From the IMG/VR virus record IMGVR_UViG_3300040811_000687: a stretch of DNA of 64,000 nucleotides; one strand, 5' to 3'. The notes beneath the pieces are model-generated. The model ran no database searches and was not told the origin of the DNA. It saw only the letters and a program-made list of their open reading frames with translations. This document shows, piece after piece, positions 109-22,907 of this stretch. Each line of letters begins with the position of its first letter. The first letter of the stretch is position 1. This DNA comes from a virus. A program made the translations under genes and the position numbers.

Positions 109-840
109 ATGAATATATTATTAACAGGCAGTGAAGGATTTATAGGTAAACACCTTCATAAATTTTTAGAACAAAACAATCACAAAGTAATACCAATAGA
201 TAAATTATCAGGTAACGATTTAATAAATTGTGACCTTAAATACGATGTAGATTTAGTCATACACTTGGCTGGTCTATCAGGAGTCAGAGATAGTTTAGAT
301 AGACCCACAGAATACTGGAAAGAAAATGTAATTGCAGGCCAAAGACTATTTGATTATTTTCCAAACACAAGAATACTATATGCTAGTTCATCAACGGCTG
401 TAGATCCTTGGAGAAATCCATATGCAATGAGTAAGAAGTCTTTAGAGAGTATAGCACCAAAGAATAGTGTAGGTATGAGATTTACAACTGTATACGGACC
501 TGGTGCAAGAGAGCATATGTTAATACCAAGAATATTAAGAGACGATGTTCCTTTTATACATACAAATCATACAAGAGACTTTATTCATATAAATGATTTA
601 ATCATGGCCATTGATACATTAATGAAATCAGATTTTAAAGGAATATGTGATGTTGGTAGAGGAGAATCTTATAACTTAATAGAGTTATTAACTTACTTCG
701 GAATTGACGCTGAAAAAAGAATTGGGAACGAGTTTGAGAGAGAAGATAATAAAGCAGACAACAAAGTATTAAACAAATTAAACTGGTCAACTACAATTGA
801 CCTTTACGATTATATAAAGGAGTATAAAAATGTCAACTGA
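109..840 (+). CDS. NAD-dependent nucleotide-sugar epimerase/dehydratase
   Basis: TGSEGFIG Rossmann motif, HLAGL, ASSS, YAMSK (YxxxK), RDFIHIND. Confidence 0.9.
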   Translation: MNILLTGSEGFIGKHLHKFLEQNNHKVIPIDKLSGNDLINCDLKYDVDLVIHLAGLSGVRDSLDRPTEYWKENVIAGQRLFDYFPNTRILYASSSTAVDPWRNPYAMSKKSLESIAPKNSVGMRFTTVYGPGAREHMLIPRILRDDVPFIHTNHTRDFIHINDLIMAIDTLMKSDFKGICDVGRGESYNLIELLTYFGIDAEKRIGNEFEREDNKADNKVLNKLNWSTTIDLYDYIKEYKNVN

Positions 841-1366
841 TATGAAAATAAATGTAGCTAGTGTAGAACATAAAGAAATAGGATTTGGTGAAGAATTACT
901 AAAAAATCATTTTGCAGGAGCTCACTTTACAAACAACGAAAGAACATGGATAGAAGTTTTAACTAATGAAAATGGAGATAGTCTTTCTTCACATCACATT
1001 GAATACGATTTAGATCATCCTAATTGTCAAGCATTAATGAAATTTACTACGTTAGATGATATACATGAAGCTACGTATATTAAAGTGAATAAGGAAAGAA
1101 AAGAATTTGAAGAATTTGCAATTCAAATTGCTAAAAGAGACGGTCTTGTACAAACAGACGATACTTCTCCAAGTAGAATACTTGATTATATTTTTAGTGA
1201 TAAAGAAGCAGATGAAGATGAAATGTTTGCTTTAAAAATTGCTTTATTTGAAGTAGACAAGATAAAAGATTCTAAAAATCTTGACGGTAAAAAAGCATTA
1301 AGAAAAAGTAAGACTAGAATAGAATTACTTAAAGGTGCTATTGATCTTTATAGTGAGGCAGAATAA
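830..1366 (+). CDS. hypothetical protein
   Basis: 178-aa ORF overlapping the epimerase stop, AAGGAG SD upstream; no motif recognised. Confidence 0.7.
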   Translation: MSTDMKINVASVEHKEIGFGEELLKNHFAGAHFTNNERTWIEVLTNENGDSLSSHHIEYDLDHPNCQALMKFTTLDDIHEATYIKVNKERKEFEEFAIQIAKRDGLVQTDDTSPSRILDYIFSDKEADEDEMFALKIALFEVDKIKDSKNLDGKKALRKSKTRIELLKGAIDLYSEAE

Positions 1367-1925
1367 AATCTGACCACCAACCTTGCCAACCTGGTTCTAA
1401 TAGGTGGTTCATTTGACCTAGAGTGCAAATACTAAATTCTTTTGGTGGTATTTCATATATATGGTTTTTAATAGAAGGACAAACTTTATCATAGTTTTTA
1501 TAATCTATTTCTCTATAGTAAAATTCATCACTACCTCTATCATATTTTTCTAGGTAAACATCTTCGTCTTCTTTAAATTTATCCCATATATGAGATACAT
1601 CGCCTGTCCAAGAAACGATAGTTGAGTTAAGTGGTGTATGAGCTTCTTCTCTCCACCACAAATCATTCAATAAAGTAAAGTCTTTACGAAATAAATCTGG
1701 TAATTCTTTCCATATAATAACATCTAAATCAAAGTATAGATTTTCTCCGTCTCTAAATTTATCATACATTTGAAACTTGTTATACCAATTACCATAAATG
1801 TCATTTTCAATAACTTCAAAACTATCATAAGATATTCCAGAATGGAAATCTATCATATACTTTAAATTATCAACATGCCATTGAGTAAATTTGTTACCAA
1901 ACCTACAAACTATTATTCTTCTCAT
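1338..1925 (-). CDS. GT-A fold glycosyltransferase-like protein
   Basis: LYFDLDVII DxD motif, LNSTIVSW, GSDEF; paralogous to 4378..5166. Confidence 0.7.
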   Translation of the reverse strand: MRRIIVCRFGNKFTQWHVDNLKYMIDFHSGISYDSFEVIENDIYGNWYNKFQMYDKFRDGENLYFDLDVIIWKELPDLFRKDFTLLNDLWWREEAHTPLNSTIVSWTGDVSHIWDKFKEDEDVYLEKYDRGSDEFYYREIDYKNYDKVCPSIKNHIYEIPPKEFSICTLGQMNHLLEPGWQGWWSDFILPHYKDQ

Positions 1926-2848
1926 ATTACAACTTTATTTTCTTCAGGATTACTATTTGCTGGACCAGTACACATAGTTAAACATCTTTTAGGTTTATCT
2001 TTTGTTGGTCTTTTAATTATATTAAAAAATTTAATCCATTCTTTACTATTAATTATATCTTCAACTGTATCATTATTATCCATATGAAGACTATCATTAA
2101 ATAAATCTTTTATTATTGGTTCGTTGTATCTGGTATTTAACCAACAACAAGGAAGTATTTTTCCTTTATTATTCCATGCCAAATCTCTTTTTGTTTTTAA
2201 ACATTTAGGTTCAAAAACTTTTTTTTCTTCAGGTTTAGTTATTTTATATACTATTTTACCTAACTTTTCTTCTTTCACTTCTTTTATGCCGTTATCTGTT
2301 CTAGATGAATAAATTAATAAAAGAGGTATATTATGCAATTTTGCCAATTGTTCAACTTCTTTTATATCATTTTTATTATAATCAAATACAATACATTGCC
2401 ATTGTACTTTAAGTCCTTGCTTAACTGCTTTTAACATAATATTAAAAAGATATTCTCCTTTTTGATGTATTCTATACTTATGGCTATCTTTTGGAAGTCC
2501 ATCAATACCAAAAACCCAGGTTGTTTTTTCTGAAGAAGCTTTAAATGCTTCATCATACCATTTTTCAGGTCTTTGTGAAGCTGCTGTAGAAATTTCTGTT
2601 TTAATATCTTTCTTCTTACACAACTTTAACATTTCTATAAAGTTTGGATTAAAGATAGGGTCTGAAAATGTTCCACAAAAACTAATTTTTTTGAAATAAT
2701 CAGTTAATTTGTCAAGTTGTTCTAATGTTAAATCTTTTCCTGGAATACTTTGGCCTTCTTGTTTATATTGTTGTCTAGCACAAGCAGCACATTCTAATGT
2801 ACACTTATTTCCAGAGTCAATATTAATAGCTCTATCTCTAAAATTCAT
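1922..2848 (-). CDS. radical SAM protein with fused SPASM/twitch-like domain
   Basis: CTLECAAC (CX3CX2C), GIDGLPKDSHKYR, C-terminal C...GKILPCCW...CLTMC. Confidence 0.9.
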   Translation of the reverse strand: MNFRDRAINIDSGNKCTLECAACARQQYKQEGQSIPGKDLTLEQLDKLTDYFKKISFCGTFSDPIFNPNFIEMLKLCKKKDIKTEISTAASQRPEKWYDEAFKASSEKTTWVFGIDGLPKDSHKYRIHQKGEYLFNIMLKAVKQGLKVQWQCIVFDYNKNDIKEVEQLAKLHNIPLLLIYSSRTDNGIKEVKEEKLGKIVYKITKPEEKKVFEPKCLKTKRDLAWNNKGKILPCCWLNTRYNEPIIKDLFNDSLHMDNNDTVEDIINSKEWIKFFNIIKRPTKDKPKRCLTMCTGPANSNPEENKVVI

Positions 2849-2862: not shown

Positions 2863-3756
2863 TTATTTAATTTCTGTAACTTTTATATTTCTTTTATATG
2901 CTGAAGAATTTATTTTTGTATCAGCAGTTTCGGGAATAATATGTTCAACACCATATGGATCAATCATTGTTTTATTTTCATTACCTTTTATATTAACTAG
3001 TTTTGCCTTTCTCATTTTCATTCCTGTACGAGGATGAACTTCTTGACCGGTTAAAGTAATTCTACTTCCATTACCTGCACCTATTAAAAGTTCAGTATCA
3101 TCTTGTTCCCAACGTGGTCGGTTTTCATTTGGATAACCTACACCTAAACCATAGGCTACTTTCTTAATACCTTTATCTATATCATCTAAAATTCCTAATT
3201 TTTTTCCCCAAAAATCATTTCCGTTTACATCATTATGACTTTTATTTGGTCCAGTAACATATCCCATTTTAGCTGCAGCTCTCATAGTCAACCCTAAAGA
3301 TATGCCAATACTACAATAAGAATTTATCCATCTTTCATGGTGTGAATTTGGTTTTAAAGAACCATCAGCGTTACAGTTTAATTGTGTGTCAGGTTCTTTA
3401 GCTACCCATATAATGTAAATACTAGCATTTGCTTGTGTGTTTCTCCATGTTGATGGTGGATTTCTTCTATGAGTATTACCCCAAGTATATCTAGATATTT
3501 CTTGAATTACTTTTCTATCCCATGTATAATATAAATCAAAATGTGATTCATATTGTTTGCTAGGGGTATTTTGAGCAATATACAATAATTCTGCTACATG
3601 TCTTTCTTTATTTTCAATTTTATCATCTTCAAATTTTTTATAATCCCAGTTTCTTTGACATTTAGTAATTTGTTCTAATATTTTATGTTCTTCATCCCAA
3701 TCATAAGTCTCATTCATGTATTTTCTCATACCTTTTTCGTATCTGTTTATTGCCAT
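2863..3756 (-). CDS. nitroreductase-fold flavoprotein
   Basis: CQRNWD and AQNTPSKQ FMN-binding-like motifs, GISLGLTMRAAAKMGY, LGVGYP. Confidence 0.7.
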   Translation of the reverse strand: MAINRYEKGMRKYMNETYDWDEEHKILEQITKCQRNWDYKKFEDDKIENKERHVAELLYIAQNTPSKQYESHFDLYYTWDRKVIQEISRYTWGNTHRRNPPSTWRNTQANASIYIIWVAKEPDTQLNCNADGSLKPNSHHERWINSYCSIGISLGLTMRAAAKMGYVTGPNKSHNDVNGNDFWGKKLGILDDIDKGIKKVAYGLGVGYPNENRPRWEQDDTELLIGAGNGSRITLTGQEVHPRTGMKMRKAKLVNIKGNENKTMIDPYGVEHIIPETADTKINSSAYKRNIKVTEIK

Positions 3757-3781: not shown

Positions 3782-4390
3782 TTATATCTTACCCACTAAT
3801 AAAAATCTTGTTCCTCTTTCGTCTGTGACTTCATCTTCAGCTAAGACTTTTGATGTAACTGGTAATTGTTTTTTAAATTGTTCTATATCATCAACACAAT
3901 TATTATGTCCTTCTATATCCCACATATTATTTGAAGTAAAGGCAAAATGAGCTTTAGTATCTATTTTTAATTCGTTCATAGATGGCATATGCTCACAAGA
4001 AGTATTGATAATTAAATCAGTTTTTTTAATTCTACTTGAATCGGGTGCCCAATCAAAAACATCTGCTATTATGAAATCTACATTTTTATAATGTGAAAAC
4101 AATCTATTTTTAGCTATACTTACAACTTCATTATCCAAATCTATTAATGTAATTCTTTTTACTTTTTTAAACGCTGGTATTAATATGCTACCATACCAAC
4201 CACCAAAAATAACTATTTCACTATTAGAATTTATATCAATATTGTTGTATATCATATTTACTAATTTTTCTTTAGTTCTAAATTGATTAGGACTATATGA
4301 ATCTAAAAGATCATCATTGTGTCTGGCCTCTGCCATTATATTTTTAAATAATTGTAAATCTATATCCATTTTATTGATTATTGTTTCCAA
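3782..4390 (-). CDS. class I SAM-dependent methyltransferase-like protein
   Basis: VIFGGWYG glycine loop, LIDLD, ADVFD, DLIINTSCEHM. Confidence 0.7.
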   Translation of the reverse strand: METIINKMDIDLQLFKNIMAEARHNDDLLDSYSPNQFRTKEKLVNMIYNNIDINSNSEIVIFGGWYGSILIPAFKKVKRITLIDLDNEVVSIAKNRLFSHYKNVDFIIADVFDWAPDSSRIKKTDLIINTSCEHMPSMNELKIDTKAHFAFTSNNMWDIEGHNNCVDDIEQFKKQLPVTSKVLAEDEVTDERGTRFLLVGKI

Positions 4391-5166
4391 TATTTATACA
4401 AAGTGTTAGTGTTATTTTCATGTACAGTTCTACCTACACCTGTATAATGGAAAATTTTTAATTTTTCATCTGGTTCGTCTAGTAACATATAATCAGTATC
4501 AAATGTTTTTGAATATAACATGTTTAACTGTATCATATCTTCTTTATTTTCGGTGTATTTACCTAACCATTCTGGTGGTGTTAAAGTTAACTTACTTTCT
4601 TTTTCAAATATTTTCCAATCAACATAATTCTGTTCTCCATAATACTTAAAATGTACCTTACCTATATTATAATAGTGTAATTGCCAATAAGACGGGTTGA
4701 GTGCAAAATCGTCCCATACATGCTTTAATTGTCCTGATTTAAACTTGTAAAAGCCTCCGTTTAACGGTAGAATATTATGATCACGTAACTTTTCAGGATC
4801 TTTAATTTTTTTAGTATCATTATTCCACCAAACACCATAAGATACTAACTCATTATCTCCAACAGGAAAACCTATAAGATCGTCTACGTTACCTACAATA
4901 ACTTGATCTATATCCATTATTATTATATCATCACCTGGTTGTTGGCCACCAAATAAAGGACTAAAGAATTTTAATTTATGCCAGTGTTTTTTAATATCAC
5001 TATGATGATTATATGGTAGTACAATGTCAGCTTCAACATTAGGATCATCACTTATACATACTGATATAAAAGGTATGGTACTATTCTTTCTTAAAGCTTT
5101 ATAAAAGTTACCAACATAATCTGGTGTATAACTACCTTTATAATATACAGTACATATTCTAAGCAT
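4378..5166 (-). CDS. GT-A fold glycosyltransferase-like protein
   Basis: WHKLKFF, IIMDIDQVI DxD, LNGGFYKF, GEQNYV, FHYTG (GT8-like pattern). Confidence 0.75.
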   Translation of the reverse strand: MLRICTVYYKGSYTPDYVGNFYKALRKNSTIPFISVCISDDPNVEADIVLPYNHHSDIKKHWHKLKFFSPLFGGQQPGDDIIIMDIDQVIVGNVDDLIGFPVGDNELVSYGVWWNNDTKKIKDPEKLRDHNILPLNGGFYKFKSGQLKHVWDDFALNPSYWQLHYYNIGKVHFKYYGEQNYVDWKIFEKESKLTLTPPEWLGKYTENKEDMIQLNMLYSKTFDTDYMLLDEPDEKLKIFHYTGVGRTVHENNTNTLYKYWKQ

Positions 5167-6043
5167 TAATGTTTCTCCAAACTATATCAAACCTTTTGTT
5201 AATGGCATGTATGAAGTTTGCAGTTGAAGGTATAAACATTTGTGTATCAAAGAAATAATGCCATTTTTGATCTAACCATTGTACCGGTACTTTATGTTCT
5301 TTTAATTTAACAGCAAATATTGTTTCATTATCATAACCAAAAAAATCAGCAATCTTTTTAGGAAATATATCTGTTTCTCCTATAAGACTTTTCATTAATT
5401 GTATTGTTTCTTTAAAATCTTTAAAATATTCTAATTGATCTAAATGTTTTTTACTAATGCCTACTATACCTGTATTGATAACATCATTTTCAGGACTTAA
5501 TCCTTTTTCTATTAACATAGCCTGAGCATTATAGAATTTTGCATTAGGACTTCTTATAGTTTGTGTTTTATCAGTTATCTTTTGAATAGGAGATACTCTC
5601 TCGTTATTATTTAAAACGCATACACCTTTTGATAAGTCCCACACTTCAAAAAAGTTTTCAGTAGTATTGGTAACTACATCAAAGTCTAGATATAAAACTT
5701 CATCATACTCTTTACTAAATTCATATAATAAATGTATTTTGAAAAAATTAACTATGTTATAACTTGTGATTTCTGGATAAAATTCTCTCATCCACTTATA
5801 ATAATCAATATAACTAGTATCTAAAGAACCAAATTTTGTATCGTTTTCTACCATTACAAAATCTATACCTATTGATTTAGCATAGTTGACTTTATTTTCT
5901 ACTAACTGTTTATAGTTTTTTTGAAACTCATTTTTAGTATTGTAGTTTGTAGGTATGGCTCCTTCTTTTTTTATATGTTTATCAAATATATCTAATTCTT
6001 CTTTAGGTATATCTATGAATAAACTGAATATTACTCTTTTCAT
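5159..6043 (-). CDS. GT-A fold glycosyltransferase
   Basis: VLYLDFDVV DxD, INTGIVG, DNETIF, FIHAINK. Confidence 0.75.
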   Translation of the reverse strand: MKRVIFSLFIDIPKEELDIFDKHIKKEGAIPTNYNTKNEFQKNYKQLVENKVNYAKSIGIDFVMVENDTKFGSLDTSYIDYYKWMREFYPEITSYNIVNFFKIHLLYEFSKEYDEVLYLDFDVVTNTTENFFEVWDLSKGVCVLNNNERVSPIQKITDKTQTIRSPNAKFYNAQAMLIEKGLSPENDVINTGIVGISKKHLDQLEYFKDFKETIQLMKSLIGETDIFPKKIADFFGYDNETIFAVKLKEHKVPVQWLDQKWHYFFDTQMFIPSTANFIHAINKRFDIVWRNINA

Positions 6044-15464: not shown

Positions 15465-15635
15465 ATGACTATAAAAGCAAAACACAAAGATTTAAAAAAG
15501 CAAGTTAAAGAAGCTGAAGTAAAAAGAGAAACTAGACGTGGTTCAAGAAGTTGGACAGATTTACGTACATTAAAAAAATTAAAACTAAAAATGAAAGATA
15601 AGTTAAGATTATCTAAAAAAAGAATGAGTTTATGA
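15465..15635 (+). CDS. small basic coiled-coil protein, DUF465/YdcH-like (not in ORF track)
   Basis: 56 aa MTIKAKHKDLKKQVKEAE...LRTLKKLKLKMKDKL; GGAGG SD; ATGA overlap with next gene. Confidence 0.7.
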   Translation: MTIKAKHKDLKKQVKEAEVKRETRRGSRSWTDLRTLKKLKLKMKDKLRLSKKRMSL

Positions 15636-17388: not shown

Positions 17389-18992
17389 AAAGATTTATTA
17401 AAACCTAAAGTAAATTTTCTTCCTTCTTGACTAAACCCATGAGGTGATTCATAATTTTCATCAAATAGATTTAACAAACTAACACCAAAGTCTATACCAT
17501 AATAATTATATCCAAGATTTAAATCTAACAAATGTGTTTCAGGCATTGTTATAGTTGACCAATTAGAATTATGCACATCTAAATGTCTGCCTTTATATTT
17601 GTAATTAGTAGTTATAGAAAAGTTATTTTTTAAATCTTTTGTATTCATAAATCCAACAGACCAATTAGGTCTTCTTAATTGTACTACATCAATCTTTTTA
17701 CTATTTAAATGACTAATAAAAAATTTAGAATTTTCTTGATTATAACTAAACTCTATACCGTCAGTATTTAAATCACCAATATCATTTTTAAATATAGTTG
17801 TTGCAAAATTATTTTTAGTTAATGTTAACTCTTGTGATTCTCCATATTCAATAGCAGTCCATGTTGTCTTATCTTTATAACTTGTTGATGTACTACCACT
17901 TATACTTAAACCATCTTCTACCTCTTTAAAGAAACCTAATTTATATGTTTCGTGTTCTTCATCAAACCTATGATGATATGAAAATATATTGTGTGAAAAA
18001 TTAAAGAAGTATCCTAGATTATGATGTTGACTTGCTAAAGATTCATTATGTTTATAATCAAAGCCAAAACCATATTTTTCTTTTTGATGTGTTCCTCTTA
18101 TTGTATAGTTTTCACTTTCATAATGAGAGTCGTCATAGTCTCTATCATATTCATGTGTATGAAAAGTTAAACTATTATTTAAATAATCAACACCTGTTTG
18201 TAAGGCAAAGAAAGTATTATCTGCCCATTTACCGTCTTGTATGGAAACACTATGACCATCTATATCAGAGAAAGTGTTTCTTGCAAACCAAGATGTTCGC
18301 CAATGTATTTGATCATACCATTTACTTACGTTAACACCTATTGTTTTATTATTTGTTCCATCTTTTTCGTCAGCTCCTGATAAAACAGAAACGTTTTGCG
18401 ACTTATGTTCGCCAGCTGAAAAAGATATATCAAAGTCATTTAATTTAGTATAGTAATTACCACTAATAGTTTTATCATTACCATTACCACCAATACTTAA
18501 TTTTTTATCATAATCTACAGTTGTTCTAAAATTAATTGCACCACCAACAGCGTCTGCTCCCCAATGAGCACCTTGTGACCCTTTGTATACATCTATTTGT
18601 ACAACATTAAACATAAAGTCTTGACCAACATCGTGGGCGCCTGTAGGTGTAGAGTAATCATTGATTGATATTCCATTTAATAATACTAATGTATGATTAG
18701 AATTAGTGCCTCTTAAAAACACCGATGATTGTTGACCTGTAGGACCTGATTGAGTTATGTCTAAACCTTGAACATAGTTTAATACTTTAGGTAAATCAAT
18801 TAGATTATACTTTTGAATTTCAGATTTTTTAATTGTAAGTGTAGGTGTTATCTTATCACCTAATGCGTTTGAGTTGTTTATGTTTGGATATATTGTAAGA
18901 CAAGGAATATCGTCATCCCATTTACAATCATCTTCCTTGGAATAGGCAACATTAGCCCATACCAAGATTAATATAAGAATTAATCTTATCAT
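17385..18992 (-). CDS. btuB: BtuB-like TonB-dependent outer-membrane cobalamin receptor
   Basis: Signal peptide; plug GLDITQSGPTGQQSSVFLRGTNSNHTLVLLNG and KGSQGAHWGADAVGGAIN resemble BtuB; NLFDENYE...GRKFTLG and C-terminal Phe; cobalamin riboswitch upstream. Confidence 0.88.
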   Translation of the reverse strand: MIRLILILILVWANVAYSKEDDCKWDDDIPCLTIYPNINNSNALGDKITPTLTIKKSEIQKYNLIDLPKVLNYVQGLDITQSGPTGQQSSVFLRGTNSNHTLVLLNGISINDYSTPTGAHDVGQDFMFNVVQIDVYKGSQGAHWGADAVGGAINFRTTVDYDKKLSIGGNGNDKTISGNYYTKLNDFDISFSAGEHKSQNVSVLSGADEKDGTNNKTIGVNVSKWYDQIHWRTSWFARNTFSDIDGHSVSIQDGKWADNTFFALQTGVDYLNNSLTFHTHEYDRDYDDSHYESENYTIRGTHQKEKYGFGFDYKHNESLASQHHNLGYFFNFSHNIFSYHHRFDEEHETYKLGFFKEVEDGLSISGSTSTSYKDKTTWTAIEYGESQELTLTKNNFATTIFKNDIGDLNTDGIEFSYNQENSKFFISHLNSKKIDVVQLRRPNWSVGFMNTKDLKNNFSITTNYKYKGRHLDVHNSNWSTITMPETHLLDLNLGYNYYGIDFGVSLLNLFDENYESPHGFSQEGRKFTLGFNKSF

Positions 18993-18995: not shown

Positions 18996-19097
18996 GAGTT
19001 TCCTTGCTCGTTGTATGGCCTAGGTGGCATTCGGAGTATAACCGTATCAAGTAATCTGGACGAATTTCACGTCACTTTCCCACTACACTTTTAGGCC
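18996..19097 (-). ncRNA. class II cobalamin riboswitch (AdoCbl-variant / env8 HyCbl type)
   Basis: Minus strand GGCCTAAAAGTGTAGTGGGAAAGTGACGTGAAATTCGTCCAGATTACTTGATACGGTTATACTCCGAATGCCACCTAGGCCATACAACGAGCAAGGAAACTC; GGCCTA/TAGGCC stem, GGGAA, GCCAC B12-box elements, terminal hairpin holds the AAGGA SD with CAAG complementary to CTTG. Confidence 0.92.
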
Positions 19098-19114: not shown

Positions 19115-19143
19115 AGTATATAATATTTTATCTAAAATGGCAA
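19115..19143 (-). promoter_or_regulatory. sigma70 promoter for riboswitch-btuB
   Basis: Minus strand TTGCCA-N17-TATACT, ending 17 nt before the riboswitch. Confidence 0.75.
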
Positions 19144-19165: not shown

Positions 19166-19507
19166 ATGGCTGGAATAGCAAACTTAACGATAGACCAAGG
19201 GTCCAATTTTACATACGATTTAGAAGTCACTAATACCGATGGTACAGATTTTGATCTTACTGGATTTACGATGGTTGCTAAAATGTCTAAAGGTTATTCC
19301 TCTACATATCCTAGAACATCATTTACTTGTACAGTAACAAATCCTACAGAGGGTGTGGTAACTATAAGTTTAACTGCCGATCAAACAAAAGCTTTAAAGG
19401 CAGGTCGTCACGTATTTGATGTTGTAGCTACTCACGCTGATAGTACTGTTACTCGTTTATTAGAGGGTATTGTTATCGTAACTCCATCTGTAGTCAAATC
19501 TTTTTAA
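19166..19507 (+). CDS. small virion structural protein (Ig/BppU-like adaptor)
   Basis: ANLTIDQGSNF...DLTGFT...ISLTADQT...GRHVFDV...RLLEGIVIVTP, typical of marine T4-like virion proteins; late promoter. Confidence 0.7.
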   Translation: MAGIANLTIDQGSNFTYDLEVTNTDGTDFDLTGFTMVAKMSKGYSSTYPRTSFTCTVTNPTEGVVTISLTADQTKALKAGRHVFDVVATHADSTVTRLLEGIVIVTPSVVKSF

Positions 19508-20880
19508 GCAAGATATTCAAATACTGCTTTGTTCATACCTTTGTTAACAAGTTTAAACTGTGCTTTAGTCATAAAGCTTTCTAGAGTAGCCCAATTTAAA
19601 CCACTTATATCGTCAAAAACCCATACAGTTTGATCTGCTTTTCTTTGATTAAAGAATACTGCTTCTTTTAAAACACTTTTTGTATCATGTGGACCGTCAA
19701 AGTGTATCATTTCATATTTGTCTATCATTCTTTTATATTCATCATAGACAGGATAACCATTAGCAAAACTATTCATAAATTCTGAATCTTCTAGATTTAC
19801 AAGATGAAACTCTGGATAATCTTCAGCAAAATTTATTAGCGTAGTTTTTCTCATTAAATTATCATAGTTAAATTTTCTGGCTAATACACTATCAGAAGCT
19901 GCATAGTCAATATTACCATATGGATCAACACCTAAATGAACAAGACTAGTATTAGGATGATAATGTCTGTATGCGTCTATAATAGTTTTACTTCCTAGAC
20001 CTAATCTAACACCAATCTCCATACTTTGACCAATAGGATTTTTTAATCTTTGTACTGCTTCTGCTAATGAAGTATATTCTACACTATCACCAGTAAATTT
20101 TTCTCCTTCATTTACTTCTAGTGAATATTTTCCAGTTTTAGGATCAATACCTGGATAAACTCTACTAACATCTTTTGCAGTCTTATCAATAAATCTAGTA
20201 TCTTTTTCACCTTTGCCTTCAACTTCTTGAACATAAGTTTTTTCAATAGGTGGTTTTTCTTCAAACATATTACGATTATCCATAATTTGTCCTACTTCAA
20301 ATGTACTGTTACCTGTGTGTCTACAACGTATTGTAGTATCTGCCCATATTTTAAAACCTTTTGCTCTTGCTTTTCTACAAAAGTCAACATCTTCAGATAA
20401 TGTATTATTATGATCAAGTGCTGAATGATATGTGTATTGAGGATAACCAACTTCTCTAAATACTTTTCCTTTAATAAGGGCACAACCCATACCACAACCA
20501 ACTATTTCTAAAAACGGAGTATCTTTAACTTTTACCCAAGGAATACGTCTAGAACCACCGTTATTAGAAGCTTCATAAATTTCTAATGAGTGTGTTCCTG
20601 GTATTCTTTGAATATAAAGACCTGATACAATATCTACATCATGTGCTAACATTTTAACTAGTGTATCTTTATCAAAAGATATATCACTATCTACTGAAAA
20701 CAAATAATCATAATGTTCTCCCCATTTAGCAATTAGATTTCTAATTTGATCTACTTGATAACCAAAAAAGAATTGAAATTCAACTTTGTATCCTTCTGGT
20801 ATTGTAAGATCATATATCGCTTTGTATGTTTCTGGTTCTATATACTTGTTTGTTGGTATTGCTATTAATACTTTTTTCAT
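19504..20880 (-). CDS. GT2-like glycosyltransferase fused to a class I methyltransferase
   Basis: N-terminal SVDSDI, GCGMGCALI, SEDVDFC; C-terminal EIGVRLGLGS, GVDPY, IHFDGPH, VFDD. Confidence 0.8.
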   Translation of the reverse strand: MKKVLIAIPTNKYIEPETYKAIYDLTIPEGYKVEFQFFFGYQVDQIRNLIAKWGEHYDYLFSVDSDISFDKDTLVKMLAHDVDIVSGLYIQRIPGTHSLEIYEASNNGGSRRIPWVKVKDTPFLEIVGCGMGCALIKGKVFREVGYPQYTYHSALDHNNTLSEDVDFCRKARAKGFKIWADTTIRCRHTGNSTFEVGQIMDNRNMFEEKPPIEKTYVQEVEGKGEKDTRFIDKTAKDVSRVYPGIDPKTGKYSLEVNEGEKFTGDSVEYTSLAEAVQRLKNPIGQSMEIGVRLGLGSKTIIDAYRHYHPNTSLVHLGVDPYGNIDYAASDSVLARKFNYDNLMRKTTLINFAEDYPEFHLVNLEDSEFMNSFANGYPVYDEYKRMIDKYEMIHFDGPHDTKSVLKEAVFFNQRKADQTVWVFDDISGLNWATLESFMTKAQFKLVNKGMNKAVFEYLA

Positions 20881-22907
20881 TGTTTCATTATCCTATTCGC
20901 ATTTTTGGTTTGTTCGTCTCCGTTAATTTTATAATCGTTTAAAGGATTTATATCATTATAATTATATATTATATCTGATACAACTTTTACCTTATCTGGA
21001 TCAGCTTGTTCTATGAGTGAATAAAATATAGAACCGTCTCCGCCAGCTTTGTACCAGTTTTTGTTTTCGTCTTGGAAATTACTGTCATCAATATCATTTA
21101 AAAGTCCTGCTTTAAATGTTCTCAAATGTGTGTATGGCATGTTCCAATTAAATTTGTATTTTCTATATTCTTTCTTTTGTTTTATTTCCTCTGGATAGTT
21201 TTGTGCTATCAAAGGTATTCTATCAACCATTGAGTAACAAGACCCATAGGTAAATTCTGTAGTGCCGTCATAAAGATTATTGTAAAAGTGAAGTATCTCA
21301 TTATCATTTATAAAAGAATCATCACCATCTAAAAACATAACAATGTCATCTTCTTTACAATATTTTCTTATAGACTCTATTTGATTTCTAACAGCGCCTT
21401 TATTTTCTTCATTACGAATCACTTTTATTTTATCACTTTCCCATTGTTTGGCAATGTTGTAAGTATTATCTGTAGAGGCGTCATCAATTACAATCATTTC
21501 ATAGTTATCATAATCTTGTGAGACAACTGATTCAATACAGTTGCTAATATATTTTTCAGAGTTGTAAGTAGGAGATATTATAACTATCTTTTGTTCTACT
21601 TTTCTTGGTAAATAATTTTCTTCTATATTAGTAAATCTTCTACCAAAAACTTTTCTAACTCTAGAATTTATATGACATACTTTTCTATATTCTTCTTTTG
21701 ATAAGTAATTTCCTAATTGTCTATATAGATGTTGTTTCCATTGTAAGGCTACAGAGTCCCAACCTACAATACCTTTAATTTGATTACAAGCATATTGTTT
21801 TTGTTGATGTAAATATCTATTATGATGAGCCATTAATACAGTGTTGACAAATTTATCTACTTGTTTATTTTTTGGTATCCATGGAAATAAACCATTAGGT
21901 TCTATTGCATAATCTATTAAGTAACAAGCTTCGTTTACTGCTGTTTCTTCTAAAGCACCAAAACGTGTAGTGATTAAAGGAGTGTTATATGCTATTGCTT
22001 CTAAAGATGATATACCAAATGTTTCAGGAAAAGCACCTGGAAATAATTTATAACTTGCTCTTTCTAATATATCTGCTATTTCAGATTGTTTTATAACACC
22101 TGTAAATTCTATACCTAAATTTTTATTTTTAGGATCATTTGACATTTTAGTCCATTCTTTTCCTTGAGCGTCTAACTCTTGTCCTGGAAAAACATAAAAA
22201 CCACCAATACATATTAGTTTAGCTTCAGGTATTTTTTCTTTTATTTTTGGCCATATATCGTTAACTAAAGGTGCCATACCTTTTGTGAAAGCTGCATTGA
22301 AAACATATAAGTGTGGGTCTTTCTTTCTTATATCAACATCATTTTTATAAGTTACTATTCCATTTCTAGTTTGAAAAAATTTATGTTTTAATACTTCCAT
22401 GTTTCTTCTTTTACCATGGTCACAATTCATCACATAAGTTGAATGAAAATCTGATAAAGTAAATACTTCATCTATATGCCCTTGTATTAAAAGGTCTTCT
22501 AATATAAGATCGCCGTTTGCAAATGTGTCATGCATCCAAACTGCTTTATGTCTAGCATTAGCTGTGATTGCTGAATATCTTTGAGGATTATATCCTTCAA
22601 ACTGTTTATATAAGTTAGGTGTTATGAAAGGAATTATAGTTCTTAATGAAATTACAATATCAAATTTGAAATCACTTTTATAATCTAAAATAGTATTGTC
22701 AAAATATTGTACACCATCATAAGTGCCTTCTCTTGCGAGTTTTGAGTCTTTATTACAGTTGTTGAAAATAGTTACTTTGAAACCTAACTTTGTTAGTTCT
22801 TTGGCCATCAAGATAGTCGCAGACTCGCTACCACCAAGGCCTCTTTTCTTTAATGTATCTCCGTCATACGGAAGACCAATTATATCTAAAAATGCAATAG
22901 AAATCAT
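20877..22907 (-). CDS. GT4-GT2 bifunctional glycosyltransferase
   Basis: GLGGSESA, ETFGISSLEA (GT-B ExFG); then PTYNSEKYI, IDDASTD, FLDGDD (GT2). Confidence 0.9.
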   Translation of the reverse strand: MISIAFLDIIGLPYDGDTLKKRGLGGSESATILMAKELTKLGFKVTIFNNCNKDSKLAREGTYDGVQYFDNTILDYKSDFKFDIVISLRTIIPFITPNLYKQFEGYNPQRYSAITANARHKAVWMHDTFANGDLILEDLLIQGHIDEVFTLSDFHSTYVMNCDHGKRRNMEVLKHKFFQTRNGIVTYKNDVDIRKKDPHLYVFNAAFTKGMAPLVNDIWPKIKEKIPEAKLICIGGFYVFPGQELDAQGKEWTKMSNDPKNKNLGIEFTGVIKQSEIADILERASYKLFPGAFPETFGISSLEAIAYNTPLITTRFGALEETAVNEACYLIDYAIEPNGLFPWIPKNKQVDKFVNTVLMAHHNRYLHQQKQYACNQIKGIVGWDSVALQWKQHLYRQLGNYLSKEEYRKVCHINSRVRKVFGRRFTNIEENYLPRKVEQKIVIISPTYNSEKYISNCIESVVSQDYDNYEMIVIDDASTDNTYNIAKQWESDKIKVIRNEENKGAVRNQIESIRKYCKEDDIVMFLDGDDSFINDNEILHFYNNLYDGTTEFTYGSCYSMVDRIPLIAQNYPEEIKQKKEYRKYKFNWNMPYTHLRTFKAGLLNDIDDSNFQDENKNWYKAGGDGSIFYSLIEQADPDKVKVVSDIIYNYNDINPLNDYKINGDEQTKNANRIMKQ

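What the first reader, a model, noticed from the sequence alone, without database searches (positions are those of the whole stretch)
109..22907. 23-kb biosynthetic-cluster-like island that carries its own cofactor logistics
Seen: at least five glycosyltransferase genes, an epimerase, a DegT aminotransferase, a NodU-type carbamoyltransferase, two methyltransferase domains, two SGNH proteins, a 2OG hydroxylase, two nitroreductase folds, five radical SAM enzymes, a SufT-like factor and BtuB, bracketed by fibre genes. The stretch 1338-15379 is one tightly coupled operon. Inference: a pathway building a heavily decorated amino-sugar glycan (carbamoyl, methyl, acyl, radical-derived groups) for virion fibres or the host surface. 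SufT would supply Fe-S clusters, BtuB would supply B12, and the flavoproteins might supply electrons. The product is unknown.
Basis: partly seen in the sequence, partly recalled or inferred. Interest (0 to 1): 0.8.

Follow-up and report, generated by a model that had tools for sequence, protein, structure and literature searches.

The report
Phage sugar-tailoring island with B12 import
A marine T4-like phage, probably of SAR11 bacteria, carries next to its tail-fibre genes a mosaic of soluble sugar-decorating and iron-sulfur radical enzymes together with its own riboswitch-controlled vitamin B12 outer-membrane receptor; the island type is already known, the B12 part was not found in the papers searched, and what the enzymes make is untested.

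Summary
Only one glycosyltransferase gene passes curated cut-offs.

The window is a T4-like pelagimyophage (portal 76% identical to Pelagibacter phage Mosig). The island is the enzyme-rich part of the published 'host recognition cluster' (Zaragoza-Solas 2020). This scan noted similar radical-SAM/glycosyltransferase islands in at least 44 other phage genomes.

It is not one pathway but at least three modules that assort independently:
- **A:** a soluble amino-sugar tailoring operon, shared with Mosig.
- **B:** a B12 module.
- **C:** two large glycosyltransferases paired with proline-poor collagen-like fibres.

The strongest result is module B. A full AdoCbl-II cobalamin riboswitch (19017-19097, minus; 75 bits against a threshold of 36.5; covariation supported) precedes the BtuB-like receptor. 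That receptor abuts a class B (B12-type) radical SAM gene. In 33 of 38 related viral loci a BtuB-type receptor fills this slot, in 8 of them a distant (26% identical) one.

The 'cofactor logistics' idea is therefore supported for B12. For Fe-S it is plausible and already published. For flavoproteins as electron donors it is unsupported. Product and acceptor remain unknown; fibre glycosylation is slightly favoured over host-envelope remodelling.

The parts
109..840 (+). Short (243 aa) NAD-dependent sugar epimerase/dehydratase (SDR)
   Evidence: PF01370 at 87 bits. 57% identical to the Mosig 'putative epimerase'. 64% identical in the phage contig L029.
830..1366 (+). Conserved unknown protein that follows the epimerase
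   Evidence: No family hit. Homologues sit in the same position in Mosig, L028 and L029.
1338..1925 (-). GT-A-like protein (weak); last gene of the operon
   Evidence: PHROG 1962 glycosyltransferase at E 7e-5. It has a DxD-like DLDVI motif. 63-68% identical in L028 and L029.
1922..2848 (-). Radical SAM enzyme with a fused C-terminal SPASM-like Cys-rich domain (rSAM1)
   Evidence: PF04055 at 34.1 bits; PF13186 at 17.8 bits, below cut-off. CxxxCxxC is present. Its relatives come only from metagenomes and viruses, in both fused and split forms.
2863..3756 (-). Nitroreductase-fold protein (lead only)
   Evidence: ESM Atlas score 0.96: 26 of 30 nearest viral clusters carry PF00881. 59% identical to Mosig_00093, annotated as nitroreductase-domain. 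No Pfam or NCBIfam hit of its own.
3782..4390 (-). Class I SAM-dependent methyltransferase
   Evidence: PF01564 at 25.5 bits against a cut-off of 22.9, plus weaker methyltransferase families. Conserved in L027-L029.
4378..5166 (-). GT-A-like glycosyltransferase
   Evidence: PHROG 1962 at E 1.6e-9. It has a DIDQV motif.
5159..6043 (-). GT8-like glycosyltransferase (weak)
   Evidence: PF01501 at 22.5 bits, below the cut-off of 24.3. It has an LDFDVV motif. 47-56% identical in L027-L029.
6060..6749 (-). Nitroreductase-family flavoprotein
   Evidence: PF00881 at 37.1 bits. No BluB or other NCBIfam match.
6751..8286 (-). NodU/CmcH-type O-carbamoyltransferase
   Evidence: PF16861 at 234 bits and PF02543 at 74 bits. 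78% nucleotide identity to Mosig. NodU equivalog at 144 bits, far below its cut-off of 1000.
8302..8670 (-). DUF59 / SufT-like Fe-S assembly factor
   Evidence: PF01883 at 50.4 bits. TIGR02945 at 82.8 bits, below its cut-off of 143. In another phage lineage it lies directly beside the riboswitch-receptor pair (L026).
8674..8988 (-). Stand-alone SPASM/twitch Cys-rich domain, partner of rSAM2
   Evidence: PF13186 at 29.3 bits. It overlaps the upstream radical SAM gene by 8 nt.
8981..9679 (-). Radical SAM core (rSAM2), split from its SPASM domain
   Evidence: PF04055 at 34.0 bits. Many SPASM-type families match, all below cut-off.
9676..10515 (-). Small radical SAM enzyme (rSAM3); the most conserved rSAM of the operon core
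   Evidence: PF04055 at 29.4 bits, with CxxxCxxC. 64-71% identical and always between the 100-aa protein and the carbamoyltransferase in Mosig and L027-L029. dN/dS 0.05-0.09.
10512..11294 (-). SGNH-like hydrolase/acyl-esterase paralogue
   Evidence: 40% identical to 11275-12078. It has GDS and D-K-H-P-N motifs.
11275..12078 (-). SGNH-like hydrolase/acyl-esterase
   Evidence: PF13472 at 20.6 bits, below cut-off. It has GDS and D-S-H-P-N motifs.
12075..12377 (-). Conserved 100-aa protein of unknown function
   Evidence: No family hit. 80-99% identical in relatives, dN/dS about 0.1.
12374..13426 (-). DegT-family PLP sugar aminotransferase, nearest to the LegC/PseC type
   Evidence: PF01041 at 269 bits. 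LegC at E 2.8e-56 and PseC at E 3.9e-54, both below equivalog cut-offs.
13426..13845 (-). Stand-alone SPASM-like Cys-rich protein, partner of rSAM4
   Evidence: It aligns to residues 223-308 of the fused rSAM1 (E 1e-9). Six Cys and a shared PCCW motif.
13821..14513 (-). Radical SAM core (rSAM4), a split paralogue of rSAM1
   Evidence: 46% identical to rSAM1 residues 4-187 (E 3e-55). CxxxCxxC is present.
14513..15379 (-). First gene of the operon; GT-B (GT1/GT4)-like (lead)
   Evidence: ESM Atlas scores of 0.92-0.98 to viral clusters, including one named GT family 1 and others carrying PF00534. dN/dS about 0.1.
15385..15430 (-). Promoter region of the 19-gene operon: perfect sigma-70 consensus plus a T4-late-type TATAAATA
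   Evidence: TTGACA-17-TATAAT preceded by TG, 12 of 12, joint best of three 12/12 sites in the 20 kb scanned. It ends 5 nt before the ATG. TATAAATA lies at 15423-15430. This motif is strongly enriched upstream of genes.
15465..15635 (+). 56-aa DUF465-like ORF that opens the plus-strand operon
   Evidence: PF04325 at E 0.013, weak. TATAAATA lies at 15436-15443.
15632..16087 (+). Asp/Asn beta-hydroxylase-like 2OG oxygenase (151 aa)
   Evidence: PF05118 at 34.6 bits. 71-99% identical next to the class B rSAM in all 38 loci that reach that side.
16087..17388 (+). Class B (cobalamin-type) radical SAM enzyme, probably a methylase
   Evidence: PF04055 at 71.5 bits. PhpK family at E 8e-28 and other B12-rSAM families. 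Close homologues carry PF02310. The model has pLDDT 85; top PDB matches are MgmA, OxsB and TsrM. The start at Met17 fits the 433-aa homologue P0243.
17385..18992 (-). BtuB-like TonB-dependent outer-membrane receptor (535 aa)
   Evidence: Plug at 64.9 bits. TonB-B12 is the best NCBIfam match, far below its cut-off. E. coli BtuB gives the only strong PDB sequence hits (E 3e-23). The top 12 fold matches are BtuB, TM 0.68-0.77 (11 crystal entries 0.72-0.77). It has a signal peptide and a C-terminal Phe. Its stop overlaps the stop of the class B rSAM gene.
18996..19097 (-). AdoCbl-II (class II cobalamin) riboswitch: aptamer 19017-19097 plus hairpin 18996-19009 with the Shine-Dalgarno in its loop
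   Evidence: RF01689 at 75.2 bits against a gathering score of 36.5, E 7e-17, full model. Covariation: 11 of 22 pairs with double changes, 93% paired against 28-46% in slid controls. The CUUG loop is complementary to CAAG in the SD hairpin.
19115..19143 (-). Sigma-70-like promoter of the riboswitch-receptor transcript
   Evidence: TTGCCA-17-TATACT, 10 of 12. It is conserved in the relatives that carry the riboswitch.
19166..19507 (+). LtfC-like beta-sandwich protein (structural/fibre accessory)
   Evidence: PF23926 at 24 bits, below cut-off. 49% identical to Mosig's 'putative tail fiber protein'.
19504..20880 (-). Two-domain protein: weak GT-A-like N-terminus and a Methyltransf_24 C-terminus
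   Evidence: PF13578 at 27.0 bits; PF13506 at E 0.0086. It always accompanies the next gene.
20877..22907 (-). Fused GT-B (GT1/GT4) and GT-A (GT2) glycosyltransferase
   Evidence: PF00535 at 97 bits and PF00534 at 47.9 bits. dN/dS 0.12-0.16.
22936..22947 (.). Back-to-back TATAAATA late-promoter motifs between the glycosyltransferases and the fibre genes
   Evidence: One search gives the sites; one search gives the positional enrichment (13 of 19 within 70 nt upstream of a gene, 0.8 expected).
23024..27737 (+). Three proline-poor collagen-like fibre genes (candidate acceptors; outside the given coordinates)
   Evidence: PF01391. 85, 64 and 51 G-X-Y triplets. Thr is the commonest residue at Y in two of the three proteins and joint second in the third. 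Pro fills 4 of 85 X positions in the first protein and is not among the eight commonest X residues in the other two.

Best explanation
The stretch is the enzyme-rich part of the 'host recognition cluster' of a T4-like pelagimyophage. It is a mosaic of three co-located modules.

**Module A (1338-15379, plus 109-1366).** This is an operon of soluble cytoplasmic enzymes. An SDR and a LegC/PseC-like aminotransferase would make a 4-amino-deoxy sugar nucleotide. A carbamoyltransferase, a methyltransferase, SGNH proteins, a conserved small radical SAM enzyme and three SPASM-type radical SAM units (one fused, two split) would decorate it. Several glycosyltransferase-like proteins would transfer it.

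**Module B.** Host RNA polymerase transcribes, from a sigma-70-type promoter, a class II cobalamin riboswitch followed by a BtuB-like outer-membrane receptor. When cellular B12 is low, the Shine-Dalgarno hairpin is free and the receptor is made. Imported B12 then shuts translation off through a kissing-loop. The B12 serves the convergent class B radical SAM enzyme, probably a methylase, which is co-transcribed with a 2OG hydroxylase from a late-type promoter. A DUF59/SufT-like protein helps load the many Fe-S clusters.

**Module C (19504-22907).** Two multi-domain glycosyltransferases share a divergent late-promoter region with proline-poor collagen-like fibres.

**Shown:** the domains, the operon structure, the riboswitch, the receptor fold, the conserved linkage and purifying selection.

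**Inferred:** sugar chemistry, B12 transport, expression timing, and the acceptor. I favour O-glycosylation of fibre proteins (about 0.4) over host LPS/envelope remodelling (about 0.3).
For: **Identity and synteny**
- The portal is 76% identical to Mosig, and Mosig has a syntenic island.
- The published cluster holds glycosyltransferases and radical SAM cassettes (PMC7029224).

**Module A**
- Domains are given.
- Junctions between ORFs measure -25 to +25 nt.
- The core order is conserved in Mosig and in the phage contigs L027-L029.
- dN/dS is 0.05-0.55.
- No protein has a transmembrane segment.

**Module B: riboswitch**
- RF01689 scores 75 bits in the window.
- RF01689 also scores 69.6-83 bits upstream of the receptor in 6 relatives tested with Rfam. 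By eye the same leader sequence is present in 21 of 25 receptor-anchored loci.
- Covariation supports the fold.

**Module B: receptor**
- It is BtuB-like by sequence and by fold.
- Receptors of the SAR11 order that are about 40% identical also carry RF01689.

**Module B: class B radical SAM enzyme**
- Fold and family point to the cobalamin-type class.
- A BtuB-type receptor abuts this gene in 33 of 38 viral loci. In 8 of them it is only 26% identical, yet TonB-B12 is again its best family.
- In a second lineage the order B12-rSAM, DUF59, riboswitch, receptor sits beside thyX.

**Timing**
- The operon has a perfect sigma-70 promoter and the receptor a sigma-70-like one.
- TATAAATA is enriched upstream of genes: 13 of 19, 0.8 expected. 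Five of these lie inside the island.

**Fibres as acceptor**
- The glycosyltransferase pair is present together with the collagen fibres or absent together with them.
- The repeats are G-[YF]-[TS].
Against: - Nothing was measured: no product, acceptor, ligand binding or expression data.
- Only one glycosyltransferase gene and no sugar-activating enzyme pass curated cut-offs.
- Mosig keeps module A without any collagen-repeat protein, so module A cannot be specific for those fibres.
- GT8- and GT4-type enzymes without membrane segments also act on lipid A-core, so the lack of membrane proteins does not exclude host LPS.
- The perfect sigma-70 promoter suggests early expression, which suits host remodelling.
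- The island holds no inner-membrane B12 transporter and no TonB/ExbBD. TonB_C was not found in 201 Pelagibacterales genomes.
- AprD4 has the class B fold but does not use B12 (one search lists it among the matches; the property is from my own knowledge).
- The riboswitch is missing from several receptor-bearing lineages. Two loci have the receptor with no class B rSAM nearby.
- The receptor model is of moderate confidence only (pLDDT 68).
- The host is inferred, not known.
Confidence: 0.5

Rival explanations
1. Host-envelope remodelling. The enzymes alter the host's LPS core, O-chain or another surface glycan during infection. This would block superinfection by competing phages or stop progeny re-adsorbing to debris. 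It is the published reading for pelagimyophage glycosyltransferases.
For: - The authors of PMC7029224 argue this from the dominance of GT8 in these phages.
- GT8-like and GT-B-like proteins are present.
- A perfect sigma-70 promoter allows early expression.
- Module A occurs in Mosig, which has no collagen fibres.
- Peripheral LPS-core transferases need no membrane segment (my own knowledge).
Against: - There is no flippase, polymerase, ligase, initiating phosphoglycosyl transferase, exporter or Gtr-type membrane protein; no island protein has a transmembrane segment.
- Five late-promoter motifs lie inside the island.
- The island always sits among fibre genes, and the glycosyltransferase pair co-varies with the collagen fibres.
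Confidence: 0.3
2. Protein or peptide modification rather than sugar editing. The SPASM-type radical SAM units, the Asp/Asn-hydroxylase-like oxygenase and the MgmA-like class B enzyme would act directly on phage structural proteins or on a small peptide. Possible reactions are cross-links, beta-hydroxylation and C-methylation.
For: - SPASM-type families that match, all below cut-off, are mostly peptide or cofactor maturases.
- The best structural match of the class B enzyme is a protein glutamine C-methylase, MgmA.
- PF05118 enzymes hydroxylate protein Asp/Asn (family description).
- The module lies beside fibre genes.
Against: - No precursor-like small ORF fits in the tight operon. The only small proteins are 100-139 aa, and two of them are SPASM domains.
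- The radical SAM genes are interleaved with sugar enzymes in a conserved order: DegT, 100-aa protein, rSAM3, carbamoyltransferase.
- Twitch/SPASM enzymes also act on sugars, for example BtrN (my own knowledge).
Confidence: 0.12
3. DNA hypermodification. The island would build a sugar or amino-alkyl decoration on phage DNA bases to evade host nucleases.
For: T4-like phages glycosylate DNA, and some thymidine hypermodification pathways use PLP and radical SAM enzymes (my own knowledge). All the enzymes here are soluble.
Against: - No base-hydroxymethylase, nucleotide kinase or DNA glycosyltransferase family was detected in the island.
- The island lies in the fibre module, not the nucleotide-metabolism module.
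- Restriction systems are reported as rare in SAR11 (PMC7029224).
- The rest of the genome could not be searched.
Confidence: 0.05
4. The receptor is not a nutrient importer for the phage. It could be a recently captured host cassette with its riboswitch. It might serve as a surface decoy or exclusion factor, or simply be carried along.
For: - The receptor cassette sits in several different genomic contexts: beside nrdAB in L015 and L024, and beside thyX in L020 and L026.
- Some lineages lack the riboswitch.
- No energising or inner-membrane partner was found.
Against: - dN/dS is 0.11-0.18 over many lineages.
- The riboswitch keeps its pairs through compensatory changes within phage lineages.
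- Adjacency to a class B radical SAM gene is 87%. It persists through replacement by a 26%-identical BtuB-type receptor that comes with a DUF6580 membrane protein.
Confidence: 0.1

Closest known systems
Host recognition cluster (HRC) of pelagimyophages (Zaragoza-Solas et al. 2020, PMC7029224)
   Same: A large non-syntenic island in the structural region of T4-like SAR11 phages, holding tail fibres, many glycosyltransferases (GT8 prominent) and radical SAM cassettes. The window is syntenic with the island of the cultured relative Mosig.
   Different: A term search of that paper found no carbamoyltransferase, TonB, B12/cobalamin, Fe-S or nitroreductase. 'Riboswitch' was not among the terms searched. 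It proposes host O-chain modification. Here the island splits into three independently assorting modules and encodes no membrane machinery.
Radical-SAM / glycosyltransferase / carbamoyltransferase islands behind the tail-fibre genes of large aquatic phages, noted earlier in this scan (e.g. e1-5791579, e1-5338232; 51 notes in at least 44 genomes)
   Same: The same enzyme mix (several uncharacterised radical SAM paralogues, SGNH proteins, a carbamoyltransferase, an SDR, an amino-sugar enzyme, glycosyltransferase-like genes), the same position beside fibre genes, and an unknown product.
   Different: Those notes are unchecked by me and concern other genomes. None of the eight shown mentions a B12 receptor or riboswitch. 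Here there are fewer radical SAM genes, and two of the SPASM domains are split off as separate ORFs.
Bacterial btuB under a cobalamin riboswitch; the class II model env8HyCbl (Rfam RF01689; Polaski et al. 2016, PMC5028336)
   Same: The order is promoter, Cbl-II aptamer, hairpin with the Shine-Dalgarno in its loop, then a BtuB-type receptor. The L5 loop (CUUG) is complementary to the SD-hairpin loop (CAAG). The hairpin lies at RNA positions 89-102, and in close relatives G96-A97-G98-A99 match the numbering given for env8HyCbl. SAR11-order genomes have the same arrangement.
   Different: Here it is encoded by a lytic-type T4-like phage. The receptor is shorter (535 aa, very short loops) and scores far below the BtuB equivalog cut-offs.
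Fe-S cluster helper genes with many radical SAM genes in marine T4-like viral genomes (Nishimura et al. 2017, PMC5332604)
   Same: A DUF59/PaaD-type protein is encoded together with several radical SAM enzymes in T4-like marine phages, and is read as support for Fe-S protein maturation.
   Different: The window shows no A-type carrier or IscU. Here the DUF59 gene sits inside the tailoring operon, and in another lineage directly beside the riboswitch-receptor pair.
Cobalamin-dependent (class B) radical SAM enzymes: MgmA, OxsB, TsrM, TokK, CysS
   Same: An N-terminal Rossmann-like domain is followed by a radical SAM barrel with CxxxCxxC. These enzymes give the full-length fold matches, and homologues carry PF02310.
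   Different: Sequence identity is 14-19%. It reaches no NCBIfam cut-off. The substrate is unknown, and AprD4 shows that the fold alone does not prove B12 use.
Glycosylated collagen-like surface proteins with dedicated amino-sugar operons: Bacillus anthracis BclA/anthrose and Mimivirus fibril glycans (my own knowledge, not tested here)
   Same: G-X-Thr collagen-like repeats on a surface fibre lie next to genes for a decorated 4-amino-4,6-dideoxy sugar (DegT-type aminotransferase, methyl and acyl tailoring, glycosyltransferases).
   Different: No homology to the anthrose or Mimivirus enzymes was tested. Radical SAM enzymes, carbamoylation and B12 are not part of those systems. Glycosylation of these phage fibres is a hypothesis.

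Membership tests
Rfam RF01689 AdoCbl-II (class II cobalamin) riboswitch | Covariance-model score at or above the gathering threshold over the full model | tested here: met
   75.2 bits against 36.5, model positions 1-81 of 81, E 7e-17.
Rfam RF01689 AdoCbl-II (class II cobalamin) riboswitch | Helices kept by compensatory changes among homologues | tested here: met
   Nine sequences (phage lineages plus two SAR11-order genomes): 93% of cells paired, 11 of 22 pairs with changes on both sides, 0 of 500 shuffles reach this, slid controls 28-46%.
Rfam RF01689 AdoCbl-II (class II cobalamin) riboswitch | Sits in the 5' leader of a B12-related gene, with an SD-bearing hairpin able to kiss loop L5 | tested here: met
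   The aptamer ends 25 nt before the receptor's ATG. The hairpin GAG-CAAGGAAA-CUC holds the SD. CUUG in L5 is complementary to CAAG.
Rfam RF01689 AdoCbl-II (class II cobalamin) riboswitch | Binds a cobalamin and represses expression | not testable with these tools
   Needs in-line probing or ITC, and a reporter assay.
BtuB (TonB-dependent vitamin B12 receptor) | N-terminal plug domain plus a 22-strand barrel, a signal peptide and a C-terminal aromatic residue | tested here: met
   Plug at 64.9 bits. The model shows about 22 barrel strands. The top 12 PDB matches are BtuB, TM 0.68-0.77 (11 crystal entries 0.72-0.77), but pLDDT is only 68. It has a signal peptide and ends in ...KSF.
BtuB (TonB-dependent vitamin B12 receptor) | Reaches the curated equivalog score (TIGR01779 / NF007926) | tested here: not met
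   95.3 bits against 599.7, and 86.8 against 836. These are the best families, but only the plug and the last strands align. It is therefore BtuB-like, not a certified equivalog.
BtuB (TonB-dependent vitamin B12 receptor) | TonB box and an available TonB-ExbBD system | tested here: inconclusive
   A conserved N-terminal motif D-I-P-C-x-T-I lies where the TonB box would be. PF03544 was found in 0 of 201 Pelagibacterales genomes, even those with receptors.
BtuB (TonB-dependent vitamin B12 receptor) | Genetic link to B12: riboswitch control and B12-using neighbours | tested here: met
   The riboswitch lies upstream. A class B rSAM gene is adjacent in 33 of 38 loci, including a xenologous BtuB-type replacement.
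BtuB (TonB-dependent vitamin B12 receptor) | Transports cobalamin | not testable with these tools
   Needs complementation of a btuB mutant or uptake assays.
Class B (cobalamin-dependent) radical SAM enzymes | CxxxCxxC radical SAM core | tested here: met
   PF04055 at 71.5 bits; the motif reads C-VRN-C-TF-C.
Class B (cobalamin-dependent) radical SAM enzymes | N-terminal Rossmann-like cobalamin-binding domain | tested here: met
   Full-length fold matches to MgmA, OxsB and TsrM with cobalamin bound. PF02310 is precomputed on 70-72%-identical homologues. The N-terminus has no Cys, which argues against the MiaB type. The protein's own Pfam hit to PF02310 is not significant.
Class B (cobalamin-dependent) radical SAM enzymes | Actually binds and uses cobalamin | not testable with these tools
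   AprD4, also among the matches, has the fold without using B12.
SPASM/twitch radical SAM enzymes | Radical SAM core followed by a Cys-rich auxiliary-cluster domain | tested here: met
   One unit is fused (1922-2848). Two are split: 13821-14513 with 13426-13845, and 8981-9679 with 8674-8988. PF13186 scores 29.3 bits for 8674-8988. Paralogy is shown. No named subfamily cut-off is reached.
SufT / DUF59 Fe-S assembly factor | DUF59 domain with its conserved Cys | tested here: met
   PF01883 at 50.4 bits. An ...SAFCPA... motif is present. TIGR02945 and TIGR03406 are the best families but fall below their cut-offs.
Pelagimyophage host recognition cluster | Non-syntenic island between VrlC and gp14 that contains tail fibres and glycosyltransferases | tested here: inconclusive
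   Synteny with Mosig's island downstream of VrlC is shown, and fibre genes follow. But VrlC lies off the window, and I did not verify gp14 myself.
Self-contained O-antigen / capsule assembly or Gtr-type O-antigen modification locus | Membrane components: initiating transferase, flippase, polymerase/ligase or exporter, or GtrA/B/C | tested here: not met
   No hydrophobic segment of transmembrane strength occurs in any island protein except the receptor's signal peptide.

The most novel reading that the evidence does not exclude
A lytic marine phage installs its own riboswitch-gated vitamin B12 receptor in the host outer membrane early in infection. The imported B12 powers a B12-dependent radical SAM reaction. 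That reaction, together with a set of phage-specific SPASM radical SAM enzymes, edits a carbamoylated, methylated amino-sugar glycan placed on proline-poor collagen-like tail fibres. As a corollary, the widely used class II model riboswitch env8HyCbl would itself be a phage RNA.
Probability: 0.25. Interest if true: 0.85.

Novelty: new variant of a known kind. Interest (0 to 1): 0.62.

Why it matters
- **Abundance.** SAR11 and its phages are among the most abundant biological entities in the sea.
- **Vitamin economy.** If a phage brings its own B12 gate, infection changes which cells take up a scarce vitamin. That bears on marine B12 budgets and widens 'auxiliary metabolic genes' to cofactor import under RNA control.
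- **Riboswitches in phages.** Only glutamine riboswitches have been reported in this phage group (PMC9004378). A cobalamin riboswitch would add a ligand class.
- **New enzymes.** The radical SAM families here occur only in viral and metagenomic data. They are conserved under purifying selection and sit in a fixed order with sugar enzymes, so they are a source of uncharacterised radical carbohydrate or protein chemistry.
- **Adsorption biology.** If the fibres are glycosylated, that would affect host recognition and adsorption in the ocean's most common phage-host pair.
- **A way in.** The cultured relative Mosig has module A, so part of this can be tested directly.

Tried and rejected
**Ideas tested and dropped**
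- Nitroreductase 6060-6749 as BluB (maker of the B12 lower ligand): no NCBIfam hit at all. Nitroreductase genes are also present in Mosig, which lacks the B12 module. Rejected.
- The radical SAM splits as frameshift artefacts: rejected. Both split (about 190-240 aa) and fused forms are common in the databases, and relatives keep the split.
- The island as decaying or random genes: rejected by dN/dS of 0.05-0.55 with no stops.
- My recollection that SAR11 lacks TonB-dependent receptors: wrong in part. 66 of 201 Pelagibacterales genomes have exactly one, and a cobalamin-riboswitch-like element lies upstream of every receptor whose coordinates I compared.

**Searches that led nowhere**
- No cultured phage holds a homologue of the receptor; the hits are bacterial sequences within the phage collection.
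- A scan of genome contigs with the receptor alone found nothing.
- The nearest virus record, G001, is a 45-kb fragment without the island.
- PDB sequence searches for 5159-6043, 19504-20880 and the DUF6580 protein returned nothing.
- 'DUF6580' occurs in no paper searched.
- No searched paper reports a viral btuB or a viral cobalamin riboswitch.
- Text searches with 23- to 26-nt stretches of the riboswitch (DNA and RNA spelling) found no paper that prints them.
- The three 'cellular' hits to the carbamoyltransferase (L027-L029, MAGs labelled Pelagibacter, Gammaproteobacteria and Rhodobiaceae) are short contigs carrying the same operon. Two of them (L028, L029) also carry fibre-like protein genes. 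I read them as mis-binned phage DNA, not as a cellular origin.

- No whole genome is held for this window.
- Not used: the search of protein representatives and the metagenome-contig scan.

Full report
**1. What the window is.** The portal gene (39241-40761) is 76% identical to that of Pelagibacter phage Mosig EXVC030M. It is 55-62% identical to portals of other T4-like marine myophages. The only long nucleotide match of the island in the phage collection is Mosig's carbamoyltransferase, at 78%. Mosig carries a syntenic island downstream of VrlC: epimerase, a minus-strand operon with nitroreductase-like, methyltransferase, carbamoyltransferase, aminotransferase and 'MoaA-like' radical SAM genes, then Asp/Arg-hydroxylase genes and tail fibres. 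Zaragoza-Solas et al. (PMC7029224) described this region in pelagimyophages as the 'host recognition cluster'. It is large, non-syntenic, lies between VrlC and gp14, and holds fibres, many glycosyltransferases and radical SAM cassettes. They proposed host O-chain modification. No whole genome is held for the window. The host is inferred from these relatives.

**2. The observation.** Details are in the observation check. Three points refine it.
- Only 20877-22907 is a robust glycosyltransferase (GT1 + GT2). The other five candidates are weak hits or language-model leads.
- The five radical SAM genes fall into three kinds. The first kind is three paralogous SPASM-type units, one fused (1922-2848) and two split into a core ORF and a Cys-rich ORF (13821-14513 with 13426-13845; 8981-9679 with 8674-8988). 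Searches show the split pieces align to the two halves of the fused protein. The second kind is a small, highly conserved enzyme (9676-10515). The third is a class B enzyme (16087-17388).
- The 19 ORFs of 1338-15379 are separated by -25 to +25 nt.

All genes tested are under purifying selection against environmental relatives (dN/dS 0.05-0.55, no stops). This removes the 'randomly assorted, unexpressed' alternative at the sequence level.

**3. The island is a mosaic.** I anchored searches of IMG/VR on the receptor (25 loci) and on the class B radical SAM gene (40 loci), then mapped all window proteins onto them.
- **Module A.** Its core order is GT-B-like, SGNH, DegT, a 100-aa protein, rSAM3, carbamoyltransferase, methyltransferase, GT8-like, two GT-A-like genes, then the unknown protein and the epimerase on the other strand. 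This order recurs in Mosig and in three short contigs binned into MAGs. Those contigs carry the same operon, and two of them also carry fibre-like proteins, so I take them for phage DNA.
- **Cassettes.** Relative to that core the window has four extra cassettes: a second SGNH gene; rSAM2 + SPASM + DUF59; a nitroreductase; and a nitroreductase-like gene + rSAM1. This matches the published remark that related clusters differ by radical SAM cassettes.
- **Mosig.** It lacks the receptor, the class B enzyme, the two large glycosyltransferases and any collagen-repeat protein in its whole genome.
- **Module C.** The pair 19504-22907 is present wherever the collagen-like fibres are. It is absent in Mosig and in the clade L066-L075, where no collagen fibre is seen either.

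**4. The B12 module.** An Rfam scan found a complete AdoCbl-II (RF01689) aptamer at 19017-19097 on the minus strand, in the 173-nt gap before the receptor gene. It scores 75.2 bits against a gathering score of 36.5.
- **Leader layout.** Upstream lies TTGCCA-17-TATACT. Downstream a small hairpin carries the Shine-Dalgarno sequence in its loop. Its CAAG is complementary to CUUG in loop L5. This is the arrangement described for the class II model env8HyCbl (PMC5028336).
- **Conservation.** RF01689 scores 69.6-83 bits upstream of the receptor in six relatives tested. By eye the same leader sequence is present in 21 of 25 receptor-anchored loci. Two diverged phage copies and two SAR11-order copies give 11 of 22 pairs with compensatory changes.
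- **The receptor.** TonB-B12/BtuB is its best family, far below the equivalog cut-off. E. coli BtuB gives its only strong PDB sequence matches. The predicted structure (pLDDT 68) matches BtuB first (top 12 matches, TM 0.68-0.77; 11 crystal entries 0.72-0.77). It has a signal peptide and a C-terminal Phe.
- **Host-order comparison.** In Pelagibacterales, 66 of 201 sampled genomes have exactly one TonB-dependent receptor. Eight have a BtuB-like one, 35-40% identical to the phage protein. A RF01689-like element lies just upstream of every receptor whose coordinates I compared.
- **The neighbour.** The convergent gene is a class B radical SAM enzyme. Its family hits are PhpK, ladderane-type and other B12-rSAM models. 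PF02310 is recorded on 70-72%-identical homologues. A confident model (pLDDT 85) best matches MgmA, OxsB and TsrM.

**5. Linkage between receptor and class B enzyme.** Of the 38 class-B-anchored loci with at least 2 kb downstream:
- 25 have the same receptor (73-98% identical);
- 8 have, in the same slot, a 601-aa receptor only 26% identical, which again matches TonB-B12 best over its full length (E 1.6e-48) and is preceded by a DUF6580 membrane protein;
- 5 have none.

In another phage lineage the order rSAM, unknown, B12-binding rSAM, unknown, DUF59, riboswitch, receptor lies beside thyX. Keeping the function through non-orthologous replacement and in a second context is the best available evidence that the receptor serves the B12 enzyme.

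There are exceptions. Two loci have the receptor beside nrdAB with no class B gene nearby. Several lineages lack the riboswitch.

**6. Fe-S and flavin 'logistics'.** The DUF59 protein is real. It varies in presence, and in L026 it is adjacent to the riboswitch-receptor pair. Nishimura et al. (PMC5332604) already reported PaaD/DUF59, A-type carriers and IscU with up to 12 radical SAM genes in marine T4-like genomes, and read them as Fe-S support. Nothing links the two nitroreductase-fold proteins to electron delivery. They accompany module A in Mosig, and neither is BluB-like.

**7. Timing.** TATAAATA, the T4 late-promoter motif, occurs 19 times in the window. Thirteen copies lie within 70 nt upstream of a same-strand gene start, where 0.8 would be expected (P about 2e-14). 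On the minus strand, five of these lie in the island:
- before 20877-22907;
- before the operon start;
- before rSAM4;
- before the carbamoyltransferase;
- before the methyltransferase.

One more precedes the plus-strand DUF465/hydroxylase/class B operon. The 19-gene operon also has a perfect TTGACA-17-TG-TATAAT promoter, which ends 5 nt before its ATG. The receptor has only the sigma-70-type promoter. My reading, inferred from motifs only, is that the receptor is made early and the tailoring enzymes are made early and late.

**8. Acceptor.** No island protein has a transmembrane segment. The island therefore cannot by itself assemble or export a surface polymer. That fits a cytoplasmic acceptor such as virion proteins. 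It also fits peripheral action on lipid A-core.

The fibre genes next door carry 51-85 G-X-Y triplets each, of the type G-[YF]-[TS] with very little proline. Other first-stage notes on this genome raised these as candidate substrates.

Against a fibre-only model, module A exists in Mosig without such fibres. I put fibre or virion glycosylation at about 0.4, host-envelope remodelling at about 0.3, direct protein or peptide modification at about 0.12, DNA modification at about 0.05, and other at the remainder.

**9. Gaps in the B12 story.** The island has no inner-membrane B12 transporter and no TonB/ExbBD. TonB_C was not found in any of 201 Pelagibacterales genomes, including those with receptors. 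Energisation is therefore unresolved. The DUF6580 membrane protein in the sister lineage is a candidate inner-membrane partner, but I found no literature on it and no solved relative.

**10. Comparison with what is known, and novelty.** The island type is known, both from PMC7029224 and from 51 earlier notes of this scan in at least 44 other phage genomes. The Fe-S idea is also known (PMC5332604). A phage-encoded cobalamin riboswitch and BtuB-type receptor coupled to a class B radical SAM enzyme was not found in the papers I could search. Buchholz et al. report only glutamine riboswitches in this phage group. Other first-stage notes on this genome flagged the same module independently. I rate the finding a new variant of a known kind. 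Interest is moderate to high because of the B12 module and the uncharacterised radical SAM families, and it is limited by the complete lack of functional data.

**11. Limits.** No whole genome was available. The receptor model is of moderate confidence. Several glycosyltransferase assignments are leads only.

Noticed in passing
window 13426-14513 and 8674-9679 (minus strand): Two of the three SPASM-type radical SAM units are split into a core ORF and an overlapping Cys-rich ORF, while a paralogue (1922-2848) is fused. Both forms are common in viral metagenomes. This suggests a two-subunit version of a SPASM enzyme.
   Followed up: partly
window 15385-15413 (minus strand): The perfect sigma-70 promoter of the 19-gene operon ends only 5 nt before the start codon, and there is no Shine-Dalgarno sequence. 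The early transcript may be leaderless.
   Followed up: no
window 15465-15635 (+): A 56-aa DUF465-like ORF (weak, E 0.013) opens the hydroxylase / class B radical SAM operon. Its stop overlaps the hydroxylase start.
   Followed up: no
L047-L051, L063, L077, L083 (e.g. L048:7332-9469, minus strand): A sister phage lineage has, in the same slot, a DUF6580 membrane protein followed by a different 601-aa BtuB-type receptor, with no riboswitch. DUF6580 may be an unrecognised inner-membrane B12 transporter.
   Followed up: partly
Pelagibacterales genomes (e.g. G082:C2:10096-10774, G154:C11:8028-9460): About a third of sampled Pelagibacterales genomes have exactly one TonB-dependent receptor. A cobalamin-riboswitch-like element lies just upstream of every receptor whose coordinates I compared (9 over and 41 under the Rfam threshold). 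None of 201 genomes shows a TonB_C domain.
   Followed up: partly
L027, L028, L029 (MAG contigs PAFP01000047.1, NYWC01000079.1, PAHC01000009.1): Contigs binned into Pelagibacter, Gammaproteobacteria and Rhodobiaceae MAGs carry the same tailoring operon. L028 and L029 also carry fibre-like protein genes. They look like phage DNA binned with cellular genomes.
   Followed up: partly
window 18996-19097 against the env8HyCbl numbering in PMC5028336: In close relatives of the window the Shine-Dalgarno hairpin occupies RNA positions 89-102, and G96-A97-G98-A99 match the residue numbers published for the env8HyCbl model riboswitch. The window itself has A at position 98. The model RNA may come from this phage group.
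   Followed up: partly
L015:536-6346 and L024:5169-11599: In two other T4-like viral contigs the same receptor lies beside class Ia ribonucleotide reductase genes (with the riboswitch in L015, without it in L024). The receptor moves as a cassette between hypervariable regions.
   Followed up: partly
window 50790-50861 and 62080-62150 (+): Two tRNA genes lie in the structural part of the window (Rfam RF00005, 67.5 and 43.4 bits).
   Followed up: no
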